From: Minisyncoccota bacterium
Lineage (GTDB): Bacteria > Patescibacteriota > Minisyncoccia > 2-02-FULL-40-12 > GWA2-44-9
Assembly: GCA_030583765.1 (NCBI GenBank)
Contig: CP129474.1
Location: 331,921-395,920 of the forward strand
Length of the DNA stretch: 64,000 bases
Direction: 5' to 3'
The translations under genes and the position numbers were made by a program. Each line of letters begins with the position of its first letter. The first letter of the stretch is position 1. This document shows positions 5,343 to 34,564 of this stretch, piece after piece. Under the pieces are notes generated by a model that was given only the letters and a program-made list of their open reading frames with translations, did not search any database and was not told where the DNA came from.

Positions 5343-6501
5343 TATTCTCAGTATAATGCTGCGCTCCAATAGTGTCGTAAAACGAAAGTAGCTCGGTTAT
5401 TCTTTTTTTTATACAGTATGTTGTACGCACCTCTCGAGAAATATGTGGGGCGGTAAGACGCGCGCGAATAACACGACTGTAAAGCACCTTCTCAAGCGCA
5501 ATCGCTAAGGCATGTGCGTCTCCCAACGGGAATAATAGCCCACGCCGCCCACCATCCAAGAGCTCCGCGAGGCCTTCAATATCGCTCGCAACCACCGGGG
5601 TACCAAGTCCGAGCGCTTCCATCGCCACATTACACCAAGATTCTGTTCTCGACGGCACCGCGAGCACGTCGGTCGCGCGCAAGAAAGCGGGCATACGGTC
5701 ATGCGATATATAGCCCTCAAAACGCAAAAGTGAACCAACGCCAAGCTTCTGTGCCAGTGCCAGTAGCTTGCGCTCGTCCTGCCCCGCACCAATAACGCGA
5801 ACCGAGCGTGGCGATAAGACGCGTTTGAGCTTCACAAGCGCGCGCATGAGCACATCAACGCCCTTCATGTGAGAGAGCTCGCCAGCATATGTAATAGCCA
5901 CGCGCGGAATCACCGGCCCATGCAAAGCTTGTGTATCTAGCTCATCCCAGTCTTTGGCGTTATGAATAACGTGTACTCTTCGCAGGATACCAAGCTCGTC
6001 TAAGGACGCCTGCACGGCACTAGAAGGACCGGATATAATACACCGCGAATTGCGAAGATGCGCACAAAATTCATCAAGGAGCGCTTGCCGCATAATCAAC
6101 GGCAATTTCCCAATCCTTGAAAAGGGTATGTGTCTCACTGTCGTGCGGAGTGACACTACAAGGCGTGCGCCGCACCTATCGGCGCATCGCAAAGCAGTCA
6201 TCATACCATCACGCAAAGAAAACGTCGCCTGTACATGAATAACGTCAGCGCACCGCATAAGTTGCACGATGTCGGCTTCGGTACTCGCCTTCTCGAGGCA
6301 TAACCGTGGCGCTACAATATGCGGATATCGCACATGCGCATCAGTAGTAAATGTTTCTGATACGGTGCGCGTTGTCGCAATAGTGACCGAGTGCCCAAGA
6401 CTAGCTAGGGCACGAGCATCTTGAAATGTCTGCACCTCAACACCGCCGCCTTCAGCGTGTGGATAGTCGTGGATAAATAAAATATTAAGTGGGCGGTTCA
6501 T
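5308..6501 (-). CDS. Glycosyltransferase family 4 (GT-B, group 1)
   Basis: 397 aa. GT4 architecture with an EX7E-like C-terminal domain (VPSRTESWCNVAMEALGLGTPVVASD). Overlaps the downstream deacetylase gene by 4 nt. Convergent 35-nt overlap with smpB. Confidence 0.8.
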   Translation of the reverse strand: MNRPLNILFIHDYPHAEGGGVEVQTFQDARALASLGHSVTIATTRTVSETFTTDAHVRYPHIVAPRLCLEKASTEADIVQLMRCADVIHVQATFSLRDGMMTALRCADRCGARLVVSLRTTVRHIPFSRIGKLPLIMRQALLDEFCAHLRNSRCIISGPSSAVQASLDELGILRRVHVIHNAKDWDELDTQALHGPVIPRVAITYAGELSHMKGVDVLMRALVKLKRVLSPRSVRVIGAGQDERKLLALAQKLGVGSLLRFEGYISHDRMPAFLRATDVLAVPSRTESWCNVAMEALGLGTPVVASDIEGLAELLDGGRRGLLFPLGDAHALAIALEKVLYSRVIRARLTAPHISREVRTTYCIKKRITELLSFYDTIGAQHYTENINPQVRVGSLV

Positions 6502-7247
6502 GGTGTTCTAGGAGATCCAATCGCCACAAACTCGGCAAGAATTCCGGCCGATACCGCCGTTAAACGATACCATGGCGGGTTTACTATTCGGAACGCCTCG
6601 GCATATGTGCTTTTAGCACGCCCGCCGCGAAGCATGGCAAGCCCCTCATCAAAGCGGAGTAGGTCACGCCCCAAACGCTCTGCATACGCAGCACGCATAG
6701 CACGCATCTTTACGGCATACGTCTCAGAAATATCAAAGAGAATGAGCGGGTTCGCTAAAACGTTAAGGCCGTCGGTTTCCAGAATAATGCCGTGCTCAAG
6801 ACGCGCACCCAAGTGAAGGAGCGTTGAGCGAAATGCGATTTCTATTGCTCGTAGACCAATGGCGTGAGCCGCGCGATGTTCGAAGTGGTAGTCTCCGCGA
6901 TTGAGAAGAATACATACATCAGGCCGCACTTCGCGTAGATACGCCGCCAGCTCAAGCACTATATCTTCGGTCGGCGAGAGAAGTATATTCCCGCCAACAC
7001 GAATACGCGGTGGCTCCATGCCAACGTCACGTGAGAACAAGTCAATTTCTTTGCGACGATTATTTGCCATCATTGCCGTTCTCTCTCGCGCATTCGGCTT
7101 ACCATTACTACCATCGGTGCATACGAATTCGTGCACCTTCCATCCACGCGCCGCGAGCGCAGCAACAGTGCCGCCAACAAGCGTGTCGTCGTCAGGGTGC
7201 GCAGATATAATCACAGCTGTTCGAGTATTAGATTGTATTGTTTTCAT
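6498..7247 (-). CDS. PIG-L/LmbE-family N-acetylglucosaminyl deacetylase
   Basis: AVIISAHPDDDTLVGGT (HPDD motif of LmbE/PIG-L). True start taken at MKTIQ (ATG 7247). The upstream part of the track ORF is non-protein-like. ATGA-type overlap with the GT4 gene. Confidence 0.75.
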   Translation of the reverse strand: MKTIQSNTRTAVIISAHPDDDTLVGGTVAALAARGWKVHEFVCTDGSNGKPNARERTAMMANNRRKEIDLFSRDVGMEPPRIRVGGNILLSPTEDIVLELAAYLREVRPDVCILLNRGDYHFEHRAAHAIGLRAIEIAFRSTLLHLGARLEHGIILETDGLNVLANPLILFDISETYAVKMRAMRAAYAERLGRDLLRFDEGLAMLRGGRAKSTYAEAFRIVNPPWYRLTAVSAGILAEFVAIGSPRTP

Positions 7248-7302
7248 GTATAAAATAACGAGGATGTGTCGGAGCCCTATACAAGGGCTCCGACACGAAG
7301 AC

Positions 7303-8328
7303 CTAGGTGACAGTAATCGTGATGGTGCGGCCGTCAGAGATGAACGGGATGTCGGAGAGTGCCTTCCCCACCCTTGACGCATGGGCGTCCAGACAACGAC
7401 GGAGATCATCCCACCCGGCGTCCTTCTTGTCTGGCGTGACCACAGTTACCCTCGTGCTTACACTCAAGCGATCGCGCCACAGGGAAGTGAGGCTGTTGAG
7501 TGTCCCGCGCGAATCGCTATAGTCGCGCACATGCACGCGGGCGTCTGGAGACGTGATCTTTTTGATCGCAGCGTATGCGGCAAGCCCGTTGAGTACGAGC
7601 CCCGTCTTTCGCATGAGGAGACCGACGCTCGTATCGTCAGAGATACAGGCGGACAAGATCCGCGCCCCCTTACAGCGCATCGGCCGCGTACTATGAACAG
7701 CAGTAACCACGTACTGCCAATCCCAACGCACGCTATGGTACGACACCGTGTCCGCAGAGCACGCAGGGCATGGCACCCTGCAGATGGCTCGTCTAGACGG
7801 CAACGCCTCTCGAAGTTCACCGAGCGTGATGTTAATCAGGGCGCAGGTCAGGTCGCGCACACGGAGCGAACCGGCGGGCATCCCCGATGGGACAATGTGC
7901 TCCACCAGCCGCTCACGCACCTCCATGAAACGCGCCAAGCGCGTGGAGATAATCGTATCCACCGCATCTGGCAATAGCCCAATTGGTACGTGTGGGCGCA
8001 GACGCTCCTTTCCAATGAACGGAACATCTCCCCAGAACTCCTTCCACAAGTTGGAGCCGAAGTCGTCACAGTCGGCGTCCAAACCCCACTCCTGCCCGTA
8101 CTCGCCGACCGTACCAGCCGTACTGATGTCGGTCACCACAGTGCCGGGCAAACGCAGACTCGCCCATGCGGCAACGAGCAGTTCCGTTGCCCTACAGTTG
8201 GGCACGGGCGAAGAAGCGTCGCACACGTAGTGCGCGTCTTCGGTGAGCACATCACGCCGTACGTAACCGGCGCGCAAAGCTTCGTCAAGGCCACTGCCAA
8301 TATTGGAACGTCCGATTTCGCAGATCAT
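7303..8328 (-). CDS. Hypothetical protein (341 aa), high-GC gene
   Basis: Long ORF with an AGGAGGG RBS 8 nt upstream of ATG. GC content clearly higher than flanking genes. No family recognised. Confidence 0.45.
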   Translation of the reverse strand: MICEIGRSNIGSGLDEALRAGYVRRDVLTEDAHYVCDASSPVPNCRATELLVAAWASLRLPGTVVTDISTAGTVGEYGQEWGLDADCDDFGSNLWKEFWGDVPFIGKERLRPHVPIGLLPDAVDTIISTRLARFMEVRERLVEHIVPSGMPAGSLRVRDLTCALINITLGELREALPSRRAICRVPCPACSADTVSYHSVRWDWQYVVTAVHSTRPMRCKGARILSACISDDTSVGLLMRKTGLVLNGLAAYAAIKKITSPDARVHVRDYSDSRGTLNSLTSLWRDRLSVSTRVTVVTPDKKDAGWDDLRRCLDAHASRVGKALSDIPFISDGRTITITVT

Positions 8329-29649: not shown

Positions 29650-31464
29650 ATGATGAAGCTTATTCGTTCAATTGCCCTCACATTCCTCGTCTTTTTGGCG
29701 CTCTCCGGACTCGCCTCTTTTTTCCTTGGGGGGCCAGAGCCTGAGCGCATTTCGCTCACTGAGTTGGCTCAGAAAATAAATGCAAAGGAGGTAAAAGAGG
29801 TGGTCATCGAATACGACCGGCTCGCTATTACCCTTGCCGATGATTCGCGCGCCGTCTCACAAAAAGAGCTCAACACTCCCCTTACCGAAACCCTTGTTGC
29901 GCTCGGTGCAAAACCAGAGCTTCTAAGCGGTATCTCGGTGCGAGTCCAGGATCCTAGCGGCGTAGGAACATGGCTTGGTGCAATTCTCCCCAGCCTGATC
30001 CCCATTCTCATTACCGTTGGCATTTTGTGGTATTTCTTCCGCCAAGCACAGCGTGGCTCTCTACAAACCAATAGCTTTACTAAAACAAAAGCGAAGCTCG
30101 CCGTAGGATCCCAAAACGGCAAAGCGATCACCTTCAAAGATGTTGCGGGGCTCATTGAAGCAAAAGAAGAGGTCAGCGAAGTGGTTGAGTTCCTCAAGGA
30201 GCCAGAGCGATTCCATAAATTAGGTGCGCGCATTCCTCGAGGAGTGCTCCTTGTGGGCACGCCGGGAACTGGTAAAACACTCCTCGCAAAAGCCGTTGCG
30301 AACGAGGCGGGCGTCCCCTTCTATTATGTCTCTGGCTCTGACTTCGTAGAGCTCTTTGTGGGCGTGGGCGCAAATCGCGTGCGCGACACCTTTGAAATCG
30401 CGAAAAAGACCGCCCCTTCTATTATCTTCATCGATGAAGTTGATGCTGTCGGTCGCCAGCGCGGCGCGGGACTTGGCGGCGGACACGATGAGCGCGAACA
30501 GACGCTCAACCAGATTCTTGTAGAGATGGATGGCTTTGAGGGCAAAGACGCGGTTGTGGTGATGGCAGCGACAAACCGCCCTGACATTCTTGACCCGGCC
30601 CTTCTCCGCCCAGGTCGCTTTGACCGTCGCGTCATCTTGGATGAACCCTCGCTCAATGATCGTGAAGCGATTCTCAAAATCCATTCGGAAGACAAGCCGC
30701 TCGCACAAGATGTCGATCTCCGCCTTGTCGCTGAGCGCACGCCTGGATTCTCGGGCGCAGACCTCGCTAATCTCATTAATGAAGCGGCTATTCTCGCCGC
30801 GCGATCACGACGCACCGAAATCCTTCAAATTGACGTCCTGCAGGCAATTGAAAAGGTTATGCTTGGCCCCGAACGCCGCTCCCACGCACTTTCGGTGCGC
30901 GAAAAAGAGATCACCGCATACCACGAAGCAGGCCACGCTCTTGTTGCATACTCACTCCCCCACACAGATCCCGTGCATAAAGTGTCTATTGTTTCGCGTG
31001 GACGGGCAGGCGGCTACACATTGAAACTCCCCTCTGAGGATAAGCACATGAAAACACGAGCAGAATTTGAATCAGAGCTCGCAGTGCTCATGGGTGGATA
31101 TACGGCAGAGCAAATAATTTTTGGCGACATCACCACGGGGGCCTCAAACGACCTTCGTGTTGCATCAAACATCGCGCGCCACATGGTAACGCAGTACGGC
31201 ATGTCCACGAAGATTGGCCCCGTCTCTTACCCAGAGCCAAGTGGTGAGATATTCTTAGGGAGAGATTTGGCGACGGGGCGCGAATATTCAGAAACGATCG
31301 CTGCACAGATTGATGACGAGGTGCGAACACTCCTCCTGCACGCGCAAAAAACAGCAAAGGAAACAATTACCAAGCACCGTGAGCAGTTGGAAAAAATTGC
31401 AAAGACGTTGATAGAAAAAGAAACGATAGAACAGCAGGAGTTCTACGCCCTCATGAAGGGCTAA
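29650..31464 (+). CDS. ftsH: ATP-dependent zinc metalloprotease FtsH
   Basis: N-terminal TMs, AAA+ Walker [12 protein letters not shown], and the zinc motif HEAGHAL. Confidence 0.9.
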
Positions 31465-31537
31465 CGGCCCGTAGCTCAGTTGGTAGAGCAGGCGTCTTAT
31501 ACACGCCGGGTCCCTGGTTCGAGTCCAGGCGGGCCGA
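31465..31537 (+). tRNA. tRNA-Ile with anticodon TAT (UAU, reads AUA). First pair C1-G72
   Basis: Hand-folded: acceptor CGGCCCG/CGGGCCG, D-arm GCTCAGTTGGTAGAGC, anticodon stem GGCGT/ACGCC, loop CTTATAC, T-arm CCTGGTTCGAGTCCAGG. Confidence 0.65.
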
Positions 31538-31585
31538 CTATATACTCAATACAATGCCCACTGCTGGGCGTTGTATAGAAAAGAA

Positions 31586-33625: not shown

Positions 33626-33699
33626 GGGCGCTTAGCTCAGTTGGTTAGAGCGACTCGTTTACACCGAGTAGGCCGGGGGTTCGAATCCCTCAGCGCCCA
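33626..33699 (+). tRNA. tRNA-Val (anticodon TAC)
   Basis: Acceptor GGGCGCT/AGCGCCC, anticodon stem ACTCG/CGAGT, loop TTTACAC, T-arm GGGGGTTCGAATCCCTC. Confidence 0.85.
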
Positions 33700-33868
33700 C
33701 AACTTATGATGAAGCCGCCGTTTGGCGGGTTTATCACAAGAGGTTATATATGCTGAGGATTCGAACGCCGGAGCGATGTCCCGCAAGCTTGTGGGACCGC
33801 GAGGCGGTGCCTAGCCTGAGTCGAGCGACGGCGAGACGAAAGGCGAAGGAGAATCCCTCAGCGCACAC
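33700..33868 (+). repeat. tRNA-linked element copy A (about 169 nt), ending in a 14-18-nt direct repeat of the tRNA-Val 3' end
   Basis: gaatccctcagcgc (33851-33864) repeats tRNA-Val 33682-33695. Contains blocks GAACGCCGGAGC, GAGGCGGTG, AGCCTGAGTC and AGGCGAAGG shared with the element after tRNA-Arg. A 7-bp stem gctgagg/cctcagc (33762-33768 / 33854-33860) encloses the core. Confidence 0.6.
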
Positions 33869-33871
33869 CCC

Positions 33872-34564
33872 ATGACACCTCCGACTGTTCTTTTAGAAAC
33901 GCCCGATCTCCTCTTTATAGACAAGCCGTCTGGGCTTACCGTCCATAAAAAGACGGCGGAAGATCCCCAACACACTCTTGCGGATTGGGTTGTCGAACGC
34001 TATCCCGATATTCGAAATGTTGGCGAAGACCCACTTCGCCCAGGTATCGTCCACCGCCTCGATAAAGAAACGTCCGGCGTGATGGTTGTCGCAAAAACAA
34101 ACGCGGCATTCTTTTCATTAAAAAAACAGTTTCAAGACCACATTATTGAGAAAGAATATTGGGCCCTGGTACATGGGACTCCTCGCCCACCTCAGGGCAC
34201 CATAGATGCTCCCATTGGAGCCCTTGGAAACAAGCGCACTACACGCATCCATGGCAAGCGAACCCTTGTGGCCCACGAAGCCATCACTGATTATAGAACC
34301 CTCAAAACCTTTGATCGGTTTTCACTCATCGCCGCCCACCCTCGCACGGGGCGCACGCACCAAATTCGAGTGCACTGCAAGCACATGGGGACGCCAATCG
34401 CAGGAGACCTGCTCTATACCACATCTGCCCCAATCCCCCAGGGCCTCTCTCGCCTTTTTCTCCACGCCCACTCCCTTTCCGTTGCCGCCCCAGACAGTTC
34501 TCGTGTAAGCGTTCAGGCCCCCCTCCCAGGGGATTTACAAAACGTTCTTGATGCGTTACACTAG
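33872..34564 (+). CDS. RluA-family pseudouridine synthase
   Basis: HRLDKETSGVMVVAK catalytic Asp motif. Also FIDKPSGLTVH. Confidence 0.85.
   Translation: MTPPTVLLETPDLLFIDKPSGLTVHKKTAEDPQHTLADWVVERYPDIRNVGEDPLRPGIVHRLDKETSGVMVVAKTNAAFFSLKKQFQDHIIEKEYWALVHGTPRPPQGTIDAPIGALGNKRTTRIHGKRTLVAHEAITDYRTLKTFDRFSLIAAHPRTGRTHQIRVHCKHMGTPIAGDLLYTTSAPIPQGLSRLFLHAHSLSVAAPDSSRVSVQAPLPGDLQNVLDALH

What the first reader, a model, noticed from the sequence alone, without database searches (positions are those of the whole stretch)
33700..33868. About 165-nt structured element downstream of tRNA-Val(TAC), ending in a direct repeat of the tRNA 3' end; homologous to a second copy after tRNA-Arg
Immediately after tRNA-Val there is a GC-rich non-coding segment whose last 14-18 nt (gaatccctcagcgcacac) duplicate the tRNA 3' end (gaatccctcagcgcccac). 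The same arrangement occurs at tRNA-Arg (39266-39429) with a 22-nt repeat. The two segments share ordered conserved blocks (GAACGCCGGAGC, GAGGCGGTG, AGCC[T/C]GAGTC, AGGCGA[A/G]G) separated by hairpins that differ in sequence but keep their pairing (gtccc/gggac versus gttcaac/gttgaac; second hairpin cctgac/gtcagg in copy B). Two explanations fit. One is a family of miniature integrative elements that target tRNA 3' ends, with att-site duplications and shared integrase arm-type sites. The other is a family of tRNA-linked structured RNAs with covariation. The sequence alone does not decide between them, and no integrase gene is adjacent.
Basis: seen in the sequence. Interest (0 to 1): 0.75.

Follow-up and report, generated by a model that had tools for sequence, protein, structure and literature searches.

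The report
tRNA-anchored structured repeat element family
The two segments are copies of an undescribed, widespread family of small folded non-coding elements in Patescibacteria (CPR) bacteria; each copy sits just after a tRNA gene and clamps a conserved RNA-like core between a second copy of that tRNA's tail and its antisense.

Summary
tRNA-Val(TAC) and tRNA-Arg(TCG) are each followed by a ~165-nt element that ends in a copy of tRNA nucleotides 57 to ~76. A covariance model scores the two copies at 117 and 94 bits; the next best hit in the window is 10 bits.

One exact-pattern scan found more than 100 further copies, mostly in Patescibacteria genomes. They lie behind tRNAs with at least 31 different anticodons. 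Every copy carries the tail of its own tRNA plus antisense arms to that tail.

The ~90-nt core is a three-way junction with strong covariation: 21 of 28 pairs show compensatory changes. No Rfam family, phage, plasmid or paper matches it.

Related genomes have empty sites or deletion remnants. Three orthologous copies of element B differ by four fully compensatory double substitutions, while the tail copy stays invariant. Tandem and partial units are common, and no recombinase gene is nearby.

Best reading: a non-autonomous insertion element that is specific for tRNA 3' ends and is transcribed with the tRNA. Its folded single strand, most likely RNA, is under selection. The mechanism of spread is unresolved. 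The integrase arm-site idea is not supported.

The parts
33626..33700 (+). tRNA-Val(TAC), host gene of copy A. It is intact.
   Evidence: ARAGORN; Rfam tRNA 73.8 bits.
33683..33700 (+). DR1 of copy A: tRNA nucleotides G57 to the 3' end (X).
   Evidence: Direct repeat D1.
33703..33740 (+). Tip hairpin of copy A: CTTATGATGAAGCCGCC / GTTT / GGCGGGTTTATCACAAG, imperfect. A lacks the canonical hairpin H and arm a.
   Evidence: Sequence; palindrome scan found 16 pairs; no canonical H found.
33752..33762 (+). Arm b of copy A (GCTGAGGATTC). It is antisense to tRNA nucleotides 57-68 and pairs with DR2.
   Evidence: MFE fold; inverted repeat I2 with the tRNA T arm.
33763..33850 (+). Conserved core of copy A: joint GAA 33763-65; P2 33766-33806; joint GUG 33807-09; P3 33810-33849.
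   Evidence: Folds; family consensus structure; covariance model 116.9 bits.
33851..33868 (+). DR2 of copy A: second copy of tRNA nucleotides 57 to ~75, with one mismatch (C to A). It is the 3' strand of closing helix P1. The rluA ATG follows at 33872.
39194..39266 (+). tRNA-Arg(TCG), host gene of copy B. A promoter-like site lies at 39143-39171.
39248..39268 (+). DR1 of copy B: tRNA nucleotides 56/57 to the 3' end plus CAG.
39269..39285 (+). Tip loop (UGAAG, a short form of the family tip motif ACGAAGUGA) and arm a (CUGUGGCGCCAA, antisense to nucleotides 67-76 of the tail copy; 8 of 10 pairs).
   Evidence: MFE fold. In the orthologues the arm changes only at its two unpaired positions.
39286..39307 (+). 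Hairpin H: 9-bp stem and 4-nt loop. It ends 10 nt before the core.
   Evidence: A compensatory U-A to C-G change is seen in L123.
39308..39317 (+). Arm b of copy B (GCGAGGGAGA). GAGGGA pairs with UCCCUC of DR2, and GA faces G57 A58.
39318..39408 (+). Conserved core of copy B: GAA 39318-20; P2 39321-39362; GUG 39363-65; P3 39366-39408.
   Evidence: (93.9 bits).
39409..39429 (+). DR2 of copy B: a perfect second copy of the tRNA-Arg tail. It is invariant in three orthologues.
39439..39512 (+). tRNA-Lys(CTT), 9 nt after DR2. There is no promoter-like or terminator-like site between tRNA-Arg and this gene, so element B lies inside a tRNA operon.

Best explanation
Both segments belong to an undescribed family of 130-190-nt non-coding elements that live at the 3' ends of tRNA genes in Patescibacteria (CPR).

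One unit has these parts, in order:
- a tip loop or hairpin;
- arm a, antisense to the acceptor 3' strand;
- a 9-bp hairpin H;
- arm b, antisense to nucleotides 57-64;
- a ~90-nt core, which is a three-way junction with joints GAA, GUG and (C)GA and two similar hairpins with G-A loops;
- a second copy of the tRNA tail from G57 onward.

Shown:
- The fold is conserved by covariation.
- The arms and the tail copy always match the neighbouring tRNA.
- Copies are gained and lost between related genomes.
- Copies occur at 31 or more tRNA species and form tandem or partial arrays.
- No protein gene travels with them.

Inferred:
1. The element enters at the tRNA T loop or 3' end in a way that duplicates nucleotides 57 to the end, so the tRNA gene stays intact.
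2. It is transcribed by read-through from the tRNA promoter.
3. It is cut out by the tRNA-processing enzymes: RNase Z at the upstream tRNA, and RNase P where another tRNA follows.
4. The arms and the tail copy clamp its ends into a long helix that presents the core.
5. The core is the selected part. It is either a binding platform or a catalytic centre needed for the element's persistence or copying.
6. Spread is non-autonomous. It probably goes through a hairpin- or dumbbell-shaped unit [tail-tip-arms-core] that is copied or recombined at the near-universal T-loop sequence, with host or trans-acting enzymes.
For: Family and fold:
- More than 120 loci match the exact two-block pattern, and about 101 are true copies.
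- RNAalifold predicts 28 pairs, 21 with compensatory changes.
- 91.3% of cells are paired against 72.5% in shuffles. Covariation is 0.489 against 0.170, with 0 of 500 shuffles as high; slid controls give 0.05-0.11.
- Divergent copies show that P2a covaries too: CGCC/GGCG, CGGC/GCCG, CGUC/GACG.
- Hairpin H keeps 9 bp plus 4 nt with a free stem sequence in about 70 of 99 copies.

Link to the tRNA:
- 81 copies have a same-strand tRNA less than 400 nt upstream, with 31 anticodons.
- The repeat starts at G57, with a median perfect run of 17 nt.

Gain and loss:
- L123 has a syntenic RluA that is 89% identical. It lacks element A and has element B.
- L125 and L126 lack both elements.
- The L125 Arg-Lys spacer looks like a deletion remnant.

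Mobility between tRNA types: the core nearest to A (85% identical) sits at a tRNA-Arg of another genome, not at other tRNA-Val(TAC) copies.

Selection in place: three orthologous B copies show 25 of 139 variable columns, four fully compensatory double substitutions, and no change in the 21-nt tail copy or in b+GAA+P2a.

Repeat behaviour:
- Tandem and partial units occur.
- Some contigs end inside the element.
- The tip motif is specific to the element.

Expression: B lies between tRNA-Arg and tRNA-Lys, with the only promoter-like site upstream of tRNA-Arg. G-U pairs favour the plus strand, for example pair 26/65 with GU in 10 copies and AC in 0.

No partner gene: no family is enriched in 100 loci.

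Not known elsewhere: no Rfam match, no phage or plasmid match, and no paper found.
Against: - No transcript data were available, so RNA as opposed to folded single-stranded DNA is not proven. Sheared G-A pairs and tetraloops are also stable in DNA.
- In many copies (class 1) a terminator-like hairpin with a T run lies between the tRNA and the core. That would limit read-through.
- The insertion mechanism is not established. Target-derived and constant segments alternate (a | H | b | core | tail copy), which fits no simple one-step model.
- Which repeat is the original tRNA end is unresolved.
- Long persistence with compensatory evolution fits a host-useful RNA at least as well as a purely selfish element.
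- No active intermediate was seen: no circle, and no free copy away from a tRNA with intact ends.
Confidence: 0.55

Rival explanations
1. A host-useful structured RNA of tRNA operons, not a parasite. The core would be a processing, stability or regulatory module. Its antisense arms and tail copy would act on, or compete with, the 3' end of the neighbouring (pre-)tRNA. Examples: a processing stalk for RNase III, P or Z; a tRNA-specific antisense switch; or a binding platform for a CPR protein. New copies would arise by local duplication.
For: - Orthologous copies keep the fold through four compensatory double substitutions, and the 21-nt tail copy is invariant while the flanks diverge.
- The arms are complementary to the tRNA's own 3' end as well as to the copy.
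- The element always lies on the tRNA strand, and B sits inside a tRNA operon.
- No mobility gene is nearby.
Against: - Only a minority of tRNAs carry it: 2 of 10 in the window, and in the loci 143 tRNAs do not match the strict pattern.
- It is lost by deletion without replacement in relatives.
- Tail copies decay in many loci.
- Tandem and partial units and assembly breaks are typical of repeats.
- Cores do not cluster by tRNA type.
Confidence: 0.22
2. Miniature integrative elements, or scars of them. A tyrosine integrase acting in trans would recombine an attP-like site with the tRNA T loop, giving the classical att duplication. The conserved blocks would be protein-binding sites.
For: - A direct repeat that begins in the T loop and runs through, and sometimes beyond, the tRNA 3' end is the textbook signature of tRNA-targeting integrases (own knowledge: Reiter 1989, Williams 2002).
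- This pattern is seen.
- The tRNA stays intact while the second copy can decay.
- The tip travels with the element, as in L008 and L040.
Against: - No integrase lies in or near the elements, and no family is enriched in 100 loci.
- 31 or more different target tRNAs share one conserved core.
- The conserved blocks are paired strands with compensatory changes, not linear protein sites.
- The arms and tail copy match sequence beyond the tRNA, as in L113 (about 43 nt), so they are copied from the local sequence.
- There is no match in phages or plasmids.
Confidence: 0.1
3. A ribozyme-based or viroid-like unit. The core would catalyse cleavage or ligation at the core/G57 junction. The unit [tail-tip-arms-core] would be released as a small circular or dumbbell RNA. 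DNA copies would be written back next to tRNA genes, for example by target-primed copying more than once around the circle.
For: - The three-way junction has invariant joint nucleotides, and the ends are brought together by P1.
- The left end of the repeat is fixed at G57. The right end varies and runs on into partial or whole second units, as terminal redundancy would.
- The unit is rod-like and self-complementary.
Against: - No known self-cleaving ribozyme model matches.
- No reverse transcriptase is linked to the loci.
- No circular form was observed.
- Unequal crossing-over between the repeats also gives arrays.
Confidence: 0.1
4. Decaying duplicates of tRNA 3' portions (pseudogene debris) with no fold of their own.
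For: - The left edge of the core (ATTCGAACGCC) resembles the reverse complement of a T arm.
- The right edge (GAGGCGAGGTCGATT) resembles a variable loop plus the T-stem 5' strand.
Against: - The conserved core is found in more than 100 species-level genomes with strong covariation and compensatory evolution.
- The covariance model separates copies from all tRNAs in the window by more than 80 bits.
Confidence: 0.03

Closest known systems
att-site duplications of tRNA-targeting tyrosine integrases, including integrase-less CIMEs (cis-mobilizable elements)
   Same: The direct repeat runs from the T loop through the tRNA 3' end. The tRNA gene stays intact and the second copy is free to decay. The insertion always lies on the 3' side of the tRNA.
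   Different: The element is only 130-190 bp. No integrase lies in or near it. It targets 31 or more tRNAs with one core. The conserved part is a covarying fold. Antisense arms to the target are built into the element.
Folded single-strand recombination sites (integron attC; CTX phage attP(+) used by XerCD)
   Same: Inverted arms of variable sequence pair to rebuild a duplex that mimics the target site. Structure is conserved rather than arm sequence. The carrier can be very small and non-coding.
   Different: No IntI or Xer link was shown. Here the loop is a strongly conserved ~90-nt three-way junction. The target is a tRNA gene. G-U pairs and operon position point to RNA.
Group I introns of Patescibacteria tRNA genes (PMC13011429)
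   Same: These are selfish structured RNA insertions tied to tRNA genes in the same phylum. One element copy (L013) even hosts a gene for a protein with a LAGLIDADG-type fold, as introns do.
   Different: The element lies outside the mature tRNA, not in the anticodon loop. The core is too small for a group I intron. There is no Intron_gpI match, even at E up to 10. No exon needs to be spliced.
tRNA-like structures (tmRNA tRNA-like domain, bacterial Y RNA YrlA, mascRNA, viral 3' TLS)
   Same: The element uses the T-stem and acceptor 3' strand of a tRNA in a coaxial helix, with a side hairpin where the D and anticodon arms would emerge. It may borrow tRNA-processing enzymes.
   Different: The T loop is replaced by the core. 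The 3' end including the discriminator is base-paired, at least in B. The 5' strands are not the tRNA's own 5' strands. No Rfam TLS family matches.
MITEs, REP elements and PATEs (small non-autonomous bacterial repeats)
   Same: They are small, non-coding, multi-copy and hairpin-rich. They depend on functions supplied in trans and break assemblies.
   Different: The terminal inverted arms come from the target rather than being constant. The duplication is 17-45+ nt with a fixed start in the T loop, not a short fixed target-site duplication. Association with tRNA 3' ends is strict.

Membership tests
tRNA-targeting integrative element (tyrosine integrase att sites / CIME) | Direct repeat of the tRNA 3' part flanking the element, with the tRNA restored. 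| tested here: met
tRNA-targeting integrative element (tyrosine integrase att sites / CIME) | An integrase gene in the element, or a cognate integrase nearby or linked to it. | tested here: not met
   The elements are 130-190 bp. No protein family is enriched within about 4 kb of 100 loci. Whole genomes could not be searched.
tRNA-targeting integrative element (tyrosine integrase att sites / CIME) | One or a few target tRNAs per element family. | tested here: not met
   31 anticodons in 81 loci. Cores do not cluster by tRNA type.
Any Rfam family, including the self-cleaving ribozyme families, Intron_gpI, tmRNA and YrlA | A match to the family covariance model. | tested here: not met
   Nothing at gathering scores, and nothing over either element at E up to 10.
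Group I intron in a tRNA gene | It interrupts the mature tRNA sequence, and splicing is needed to make the tRNA. | tested here: not met
   Complete tRNAs precede both elements, at 73.8 and 71.5 bits. The element starts after the 3' end.
MITE | Constant terminal inverted repeats and a short target-site duplication of fixed length. | tested here: not met
   The arms vary with the tRNA. The duplication is 17-45+ nt with a variable right end.
tRNA-like structure (TLS) | A coaxial acceptor/T helix with a T loop and a free single-stranded 3' end. | tested here: not met
   The T loop is replaced by the core. In B, nucleotides 73-76 are paired with arm a.
Retron non-coding RNA | A reverse transcriptase gene directly downstream, and a1/a2 end pairing. 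| tested here: not met
   End pairing is present (P1), but no reverse transcriptase lies next to any copy.
Folded single-strand recombination site (attC-like) | Recombination by an IntI- or Xer-type enzyme on the folded strand. | not testable with these tools
   Only the fold can be seen.
Structured non-coding RNA under selection (generic) | Compensatory base changes that support a common fold. | tested here: met

The most novel reading that the evidence does not exclude
A new kind of mobile genetic element. It would be a ~150-nt protein-free unit whose folded RNA (or single-stranded DNA) recognises the T loop and 3' end of tRNA genes through re-writable antisense arms. It would be copied in, possibly from a circular dumbbell form and possibly with its own catalytic core, so that the tRNA tail is duplicated and the gene is spared. 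In effect it would be a bacterial, tRNA-targeting, viroid-like or RNA-guided insertion element.
Probability: 0.2. Interest if true: 0.95.

Novelty: categorically new. Interest (0 to 1): 0.8.

Why it matters
If this holds, CPR genomes carry a common repeat class that has gone unnoticed. These genomes are among the smallest and least understood in bacteria.

The conserved part of the repeat is a fold, not a gene. Its ends are written from the tRNA it sits behind. That combination matters for four reasons:
- It offers a new structured RNA class for biochemistry: a three-way junction with invariant joints and two G-A-loop hairpins.
- It offers a possible new way of targeting insertions to tRNA genes without an element-encoded recombinase.
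- It is a practical marker for assembly breaks and strain variation in CPR metagenomes.
- It is a caution for tRNA and att-site annotation, because the second tail copy looks like an attR.

The question can be tested directly with existing groundwater metatranscriptomes and with a one-day in vitro transcription assay.

Tried and rejected
- Rfam at gathering scores and at E up to 10: no family over either element.
- Viral contig scan: two chance hits in coding DNA. Phage and plasmid blastn found nothing.
- Group I intron idea. The Patescibacteria tRNA intron paper concerns anticodon-loop introns. Here the tRNAs are complete, so the idea was rejected.
- Hammerhead, hairpin and K-turn readings of the junction and G-A loops, checked by eye. 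The joints (GAA, GUG, CGA) and the loops with a 1-nt bulge do not fit those consensus motifs. This rests on my own knowledge and was not tested by a tool.
- H/ACA-like guide pocket (arm-hairpin-arm): rejected, because the target strand is fully paired with no unpaired U (by eye).
- Search for a partner protein near 100 loci: none enriched.
  - The HTH plus LAGLIDADG-fold ORF family is nested in one element (L013).
  - Elsewhere it sits near intron-bearing tRNAs, so it is treated as an independent invader.
- Looking up the window's RluA protein in the contig index found nothing.
- The single metagenome scan with RluA gave only one distant locus and no new empty site.
- The first test of whether arm b follows the tRNA copy or DR2 was spoiled by misplaced DR2 positions.
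  - The cleaner version shows DR2 closer to the tRNA than arm b is, with 69 against 121 mismatches.
  - It gives no clear asymmetry.
- Deciding which repeat is the original tRNA end at site A: the evidence points both ways.
- Six literature searches ran and found no description of the family. Two further attempts failed on term syntax.

Full report
**1. The observation**

ARAGORN and Rfam place tRNA-Val(TAC) at 33626-33700 and tRNA-Arg(TCG) at 39194-39266.

Each tRNA is followed by a non-coding stretch that ends in a second copy of the tRNA tail:
- Copy A: 33683-33700 against 33851-33868, 17 of 18 identical.
- Copy B: 39248-39268 against 39409-39429, 21 of 21 identical.

The 12-mer GAACGCCGGAGC occurs exactly only at these two places in the window.

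Both copies fold into the same three-way junction, far better than shuffled sequence: z -4.2 and -5.1 for the cores and z -7.3 for the whole B element.

The repeat is not a loose appendage. It is the 3' strand of the closing helix. Its partner is an antisense arm on the 5' side of the core: 33752-33762 in A, and 39308-39317 plus 39274-39285 in B.

**2. A large family**

- About 101 hits are true copies. The rest are chance matches in GC-rich coding DNA.
- The record titles are overwhelmingly Patescibacteria/CPR lineages: Paceibacterota, Saccharibacteria, Uhr-, Magasanik-, Yanofsky-, Portnoy-, Kaiser- and Nomurabacteria.
- A few are labelled Gammaproteobacteria. They come from an automated MAG series, and I did not verify them.

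81 copies have a same-strand tRNA less than 400 nt upstream. These tRNAs have 31 different anticodons.

In nearly every case the sequence right after the core repeats the tail of that particular tRNA:
- The repeat starts at T-loop nucleotide G57 (CGAWUC...).
- It runs to the 3' end, with a median perfect run of 17 nt.
- It often continues beyond the 3' end, for example about 43 nt in L113.

Rfam has no matching family, even at E up to 10. Phage, plasmid and viral collections have no true match. Six literature searches found no description. The one related paper, on group I introns in Patescibacteria tRNA anticodon loops, concerns something else.

**3. Anatomy of a unit**

Alignment A2 (101 copies) and the upstream analyses give these parts, in order:
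- tRNA tail X (nucleotides 57 to ~76).
- Tip. This is either a short loop with the element-specific motif (GA)ACGAAGUGA or a terminator-like hairpin inside a long palindrome.
- Arm a, antisense to the acceptor 3' strand. It is perfect in about a third of copies and degenerate in the others.
- Hairpin H: exactly 9 bp plus a 4-nt loop, with a freely covarying stem, in about 70 of 99 copies. It ends 10-11 nt before the core.
- Arm b, antisense to nucleotides 57-64. A systematic variant has UGA in place of UUC and puts tandem G-A pairs against G57 A58.
- Core: GAA, P2, GUG, P3, (C)GA.
- Tail copy X'.

P2 and P3 look like two versions of one module, GCC-NGA-G...hairpin...C-GA-GGC (by eye).

Copy B is canonical. 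Copy A lacks H and arm a and has a long tip hairpin instead.

**4. Is the fold real?**

- RNAalifold predicts 28 pairs, and 21 of them show compensatory changes.
- On the MAFFT alignment, which was not fitted to the structure, 91.3% of cells are paired against 72.5% in shuffles.
- The covariation score is 0.489 against 0.170, with 0 of 500 shuffles as high. Slid partners give 0.05-0.11.
- The four invariant P2a pairs were fixed by my search pattern. Divergent copies found with covariance model R1 show that this helix covaries too: CGCC/GGCG, CGGC/GCCG and CGUC/GACG.
- G-U pairs favour the tRNA strand. Pair 26/65 has GU in 10 copies and AC in none.
- In the window the model finds only A (116.9 bits) and B (93.9 bits). 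The next best hit scores 9.9 bits.

**5. Gain, loss and selection**

The window comes from a Candidatus Paceibacterota MAG.

What the relatives show:
- L123 has a syntenic RluA that is 89% identical. Its tRNA-Val(TAC) is followed after 15 nt by the rluA start, so it has no element A. It does have element B.
- L125 and L126 are more distant relatives and lack both elements. Their tRNA-Val abuts rluA, and their Arg-Lys spacers are 61 and 32 nt.
- The L125 spacer contains a tip-motif-like GAACGAACGTG, an arm-a-like GTGTCCTCAAGC and a core-end-like GAAGCCGAGATCC. It is probably a deletion remnant.
- The 13-nt spacer in L123 (AGCTTACAAT...) resembles the first 10 nt after DR1 in the window. It may also be a remnant.

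Elements are therefore gained and also lost by deletion.

A third genome, L130, also carries element B. Among the three orthologues:
- 25 of 139 columns from the tip to P3 vary.
- Four of these changes are fully compensatory double substitutions, at columns 99/108, 127/169, 132/163 and 141/153.
- The 21-nt tail copy and the 24 nt of b+GAA+P2a do not vary at all, while the spacer after DR2 is scrambled.
- At the observed 18% variability, the chance of no change in 21 nt is about 0.016.

The fold and the tail copy are therefore under constraint in place.

**6. Repeat-like behaviour**

- The core nearest to A (85% identical) sits behind a tRNA-Arg in another Paceibacterota genome. It is not behind other tRNA-Val(TAC) genes, and it is not B. 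Cores therefore move between tRNA types, and the arms are rewritten.
- Tandem units occur in L033 and L107. Partial second units, where the tail copy is followed again by the tip motif, arm a or H, occur in L036, L068, L078 and L083.
- L008 and L040, from one MAG, share the same tip, H, arm b and P2 at two loci.
- Several contigs end inside or next to the element: L016, L033, L066, L070, L104 and L129.
- No protein family is enriched within about 4 kb of 100 loci.

**7. Expression (inference)**

For B, the only promoter-like site is TTGAAC-17-TATAGT at 39143-39171, upstream of tRNA-Arg.
- There is no promoter-like or terminator-like site between tRNA-Arg, the element and tRNA-Lys at 39439.
- Transcription of tRNA-Lys should therefore pass through B.
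- RNase Z and RNase P should then define the ends of the B RNA.

In the family, 10 of 102 copies are followed closely by another tRNA, and 15 by a terminator-like hairpin. Against easy read-through, many class 1 copies have a terminator-like tip between the tRNA and the core.

**8. What it most likely is**

I commit to a non-autonomous insertion element specific for tRNA 3' ends, whose selected part is a folded single strand, most likely RNA (confidence 0.55).

How far each step is supported:
- Shown: family, fold, target-matched arms and tail copy, gain and loss, arrays, and the absence of a partner gene.
- Inferred: co-transcription, processing by tRNA enzymes, and the core acting as a binding or catalytic centre.
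- Not resolved: the copying mechanism.

The fixed left end at G57 lies at the centre of the TTCGAA palindrome of the T loop. The right end is variable and runs on into partial second units. Together these suggest either copying of a unit [X-tip-a-H-b-core] more than once around, or recombination at the near-universal T-loop sequence followed by unequal crossing-over.

The alternation of target-derived and constant segments (a | H | b | core | X') fits neither a plain target-site duplication, nor an integrase attP, nor one-step fold-back synthesis.

Which repeat is the original tRNA end is open:
- DR2+CCC+ATG in the window looks like the tRNA end +1-2 nt +ATG of L125 and L126.
- But the L123 spacer looks like the sequence after DR1.

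**9. Rivals**

- A host-useful operon RNA, such as a processing stalk, an antisense switch or a protein platform. It is favoured by the long persistence and the invariant tail copy. It is disfavoured by patchy occupancy, loss, decay and arrays (0.22).
- Miniature integrase elements. They are favoured by the classical shape of the repeat. They are disfavoured by 31 or more targets, the absence of an integrase, and conserved blocks that are paired strands (0.10).
- A ribozyme or viroid-like circle. This is attractive but has no direct support (0.10).
- tRNA debris. This is refuted for the present state, although the core edges do resemble T-arm sequence and may tell of the origin.

**10. Comparison with what is known**

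- Like integrase att sites, it duplicates the target from the T loop to the 3' end.
- Like attC or CTX attP(+), it has target-mimicking arms on a folded strand.
- Like group I introns of the same phylum, it is a structured insertion at tRNA genes that can host a gene with a LAGLIDADG-type fold.
- Like small repeats, it is multi-copy and breaks assemblies.

It fails the defining tests of each of these (see the membership table). I therefore rate it as a new kind, with the caveat that the mechanism is inferred.

**11. Side finding**

Window 37567-38229 encodes an HTH protein whose C-terminal domain has the fold of LAGLIDADG homing endonucleases.
- The gene is present in L123 and L130 and absent in L125 and L126.
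- A homologue is nested inside an element in L013. Another lies in the intron region of a tRNA-Met in L009.
- I treat it as a separate invader of the same neighbourhoods, but it is the only protein seen inside an element.

Noticed in passing
[not shown]
   Followed up: partly
L013 5457-6149: A homologue of that ORF (30% identical) is nested inside an element, between tRNA-Glu and arm b/core. It takes the place of the tip, arm a and hairpin H. This is the only protein gene found inside a copy.
   Followed up: partly
L009 about 6750-7615 (-) and L078 about 5650-5860 (-): tRNA genes interrupted by long introns: ARAGORN calls a tRNA-Met with a 789-nt intron in L009, and L078 has a tRNA that looks interrupted by eye. 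The LAGLIDADG-like ORF family lies in or next to them. In L009 the intron-bearing tRNA also carries an element at its 3' end.
   Followed up: no
L125 4376-4436 (spacer between tRNA-Arg and tRNA-Lys): The 61-nt spacer holds a tip-motif-like GAACGAACGTG, an arm-a-like GTGTCCTCAAGC and a core-end-like GAAGCCGAGATCC. It looks like an element gutted by an internal deletion.
   Followed up: partly
L016, L033, L066, L070, L104, L129 (contig ends): These metagenome contigs start or stop inside the element or within about 70 nt of it, as expected for a near-identical multi-copy repeat that breaks assemblies.
   Followed up: partly
window 31465-31538: tRNA-Ile with anticodon TAT starts at the base right after the stop codon of the 604-aa ORF at 29650-31464. 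In the syntenic relative L123 the corresponding ORF is FtsH-like. The same arrangement is seen in L123 and L126.
   Followed up: no
L094 2959-3091 and 3843-3975: Two copies in one genome, behind tRNA-Gly and tRNA-Pro, have almost identical P3 but different P2. This suggests exchange of modules or gene conversion between copies.
   Followed up: no
L051 2720-2849, L093 4120-4250, L032 7551-7684, L090 7416-7549: A divergent subfamily scoring 30-39 bits, with a different P3 and altered P2a (for example GAAAGGCGGAGC...GCGAGCCCGGG). It keeps the same layout of tRNA tail copy and arms. The family is broader than the exact pattern shows.
   Followed up: partly
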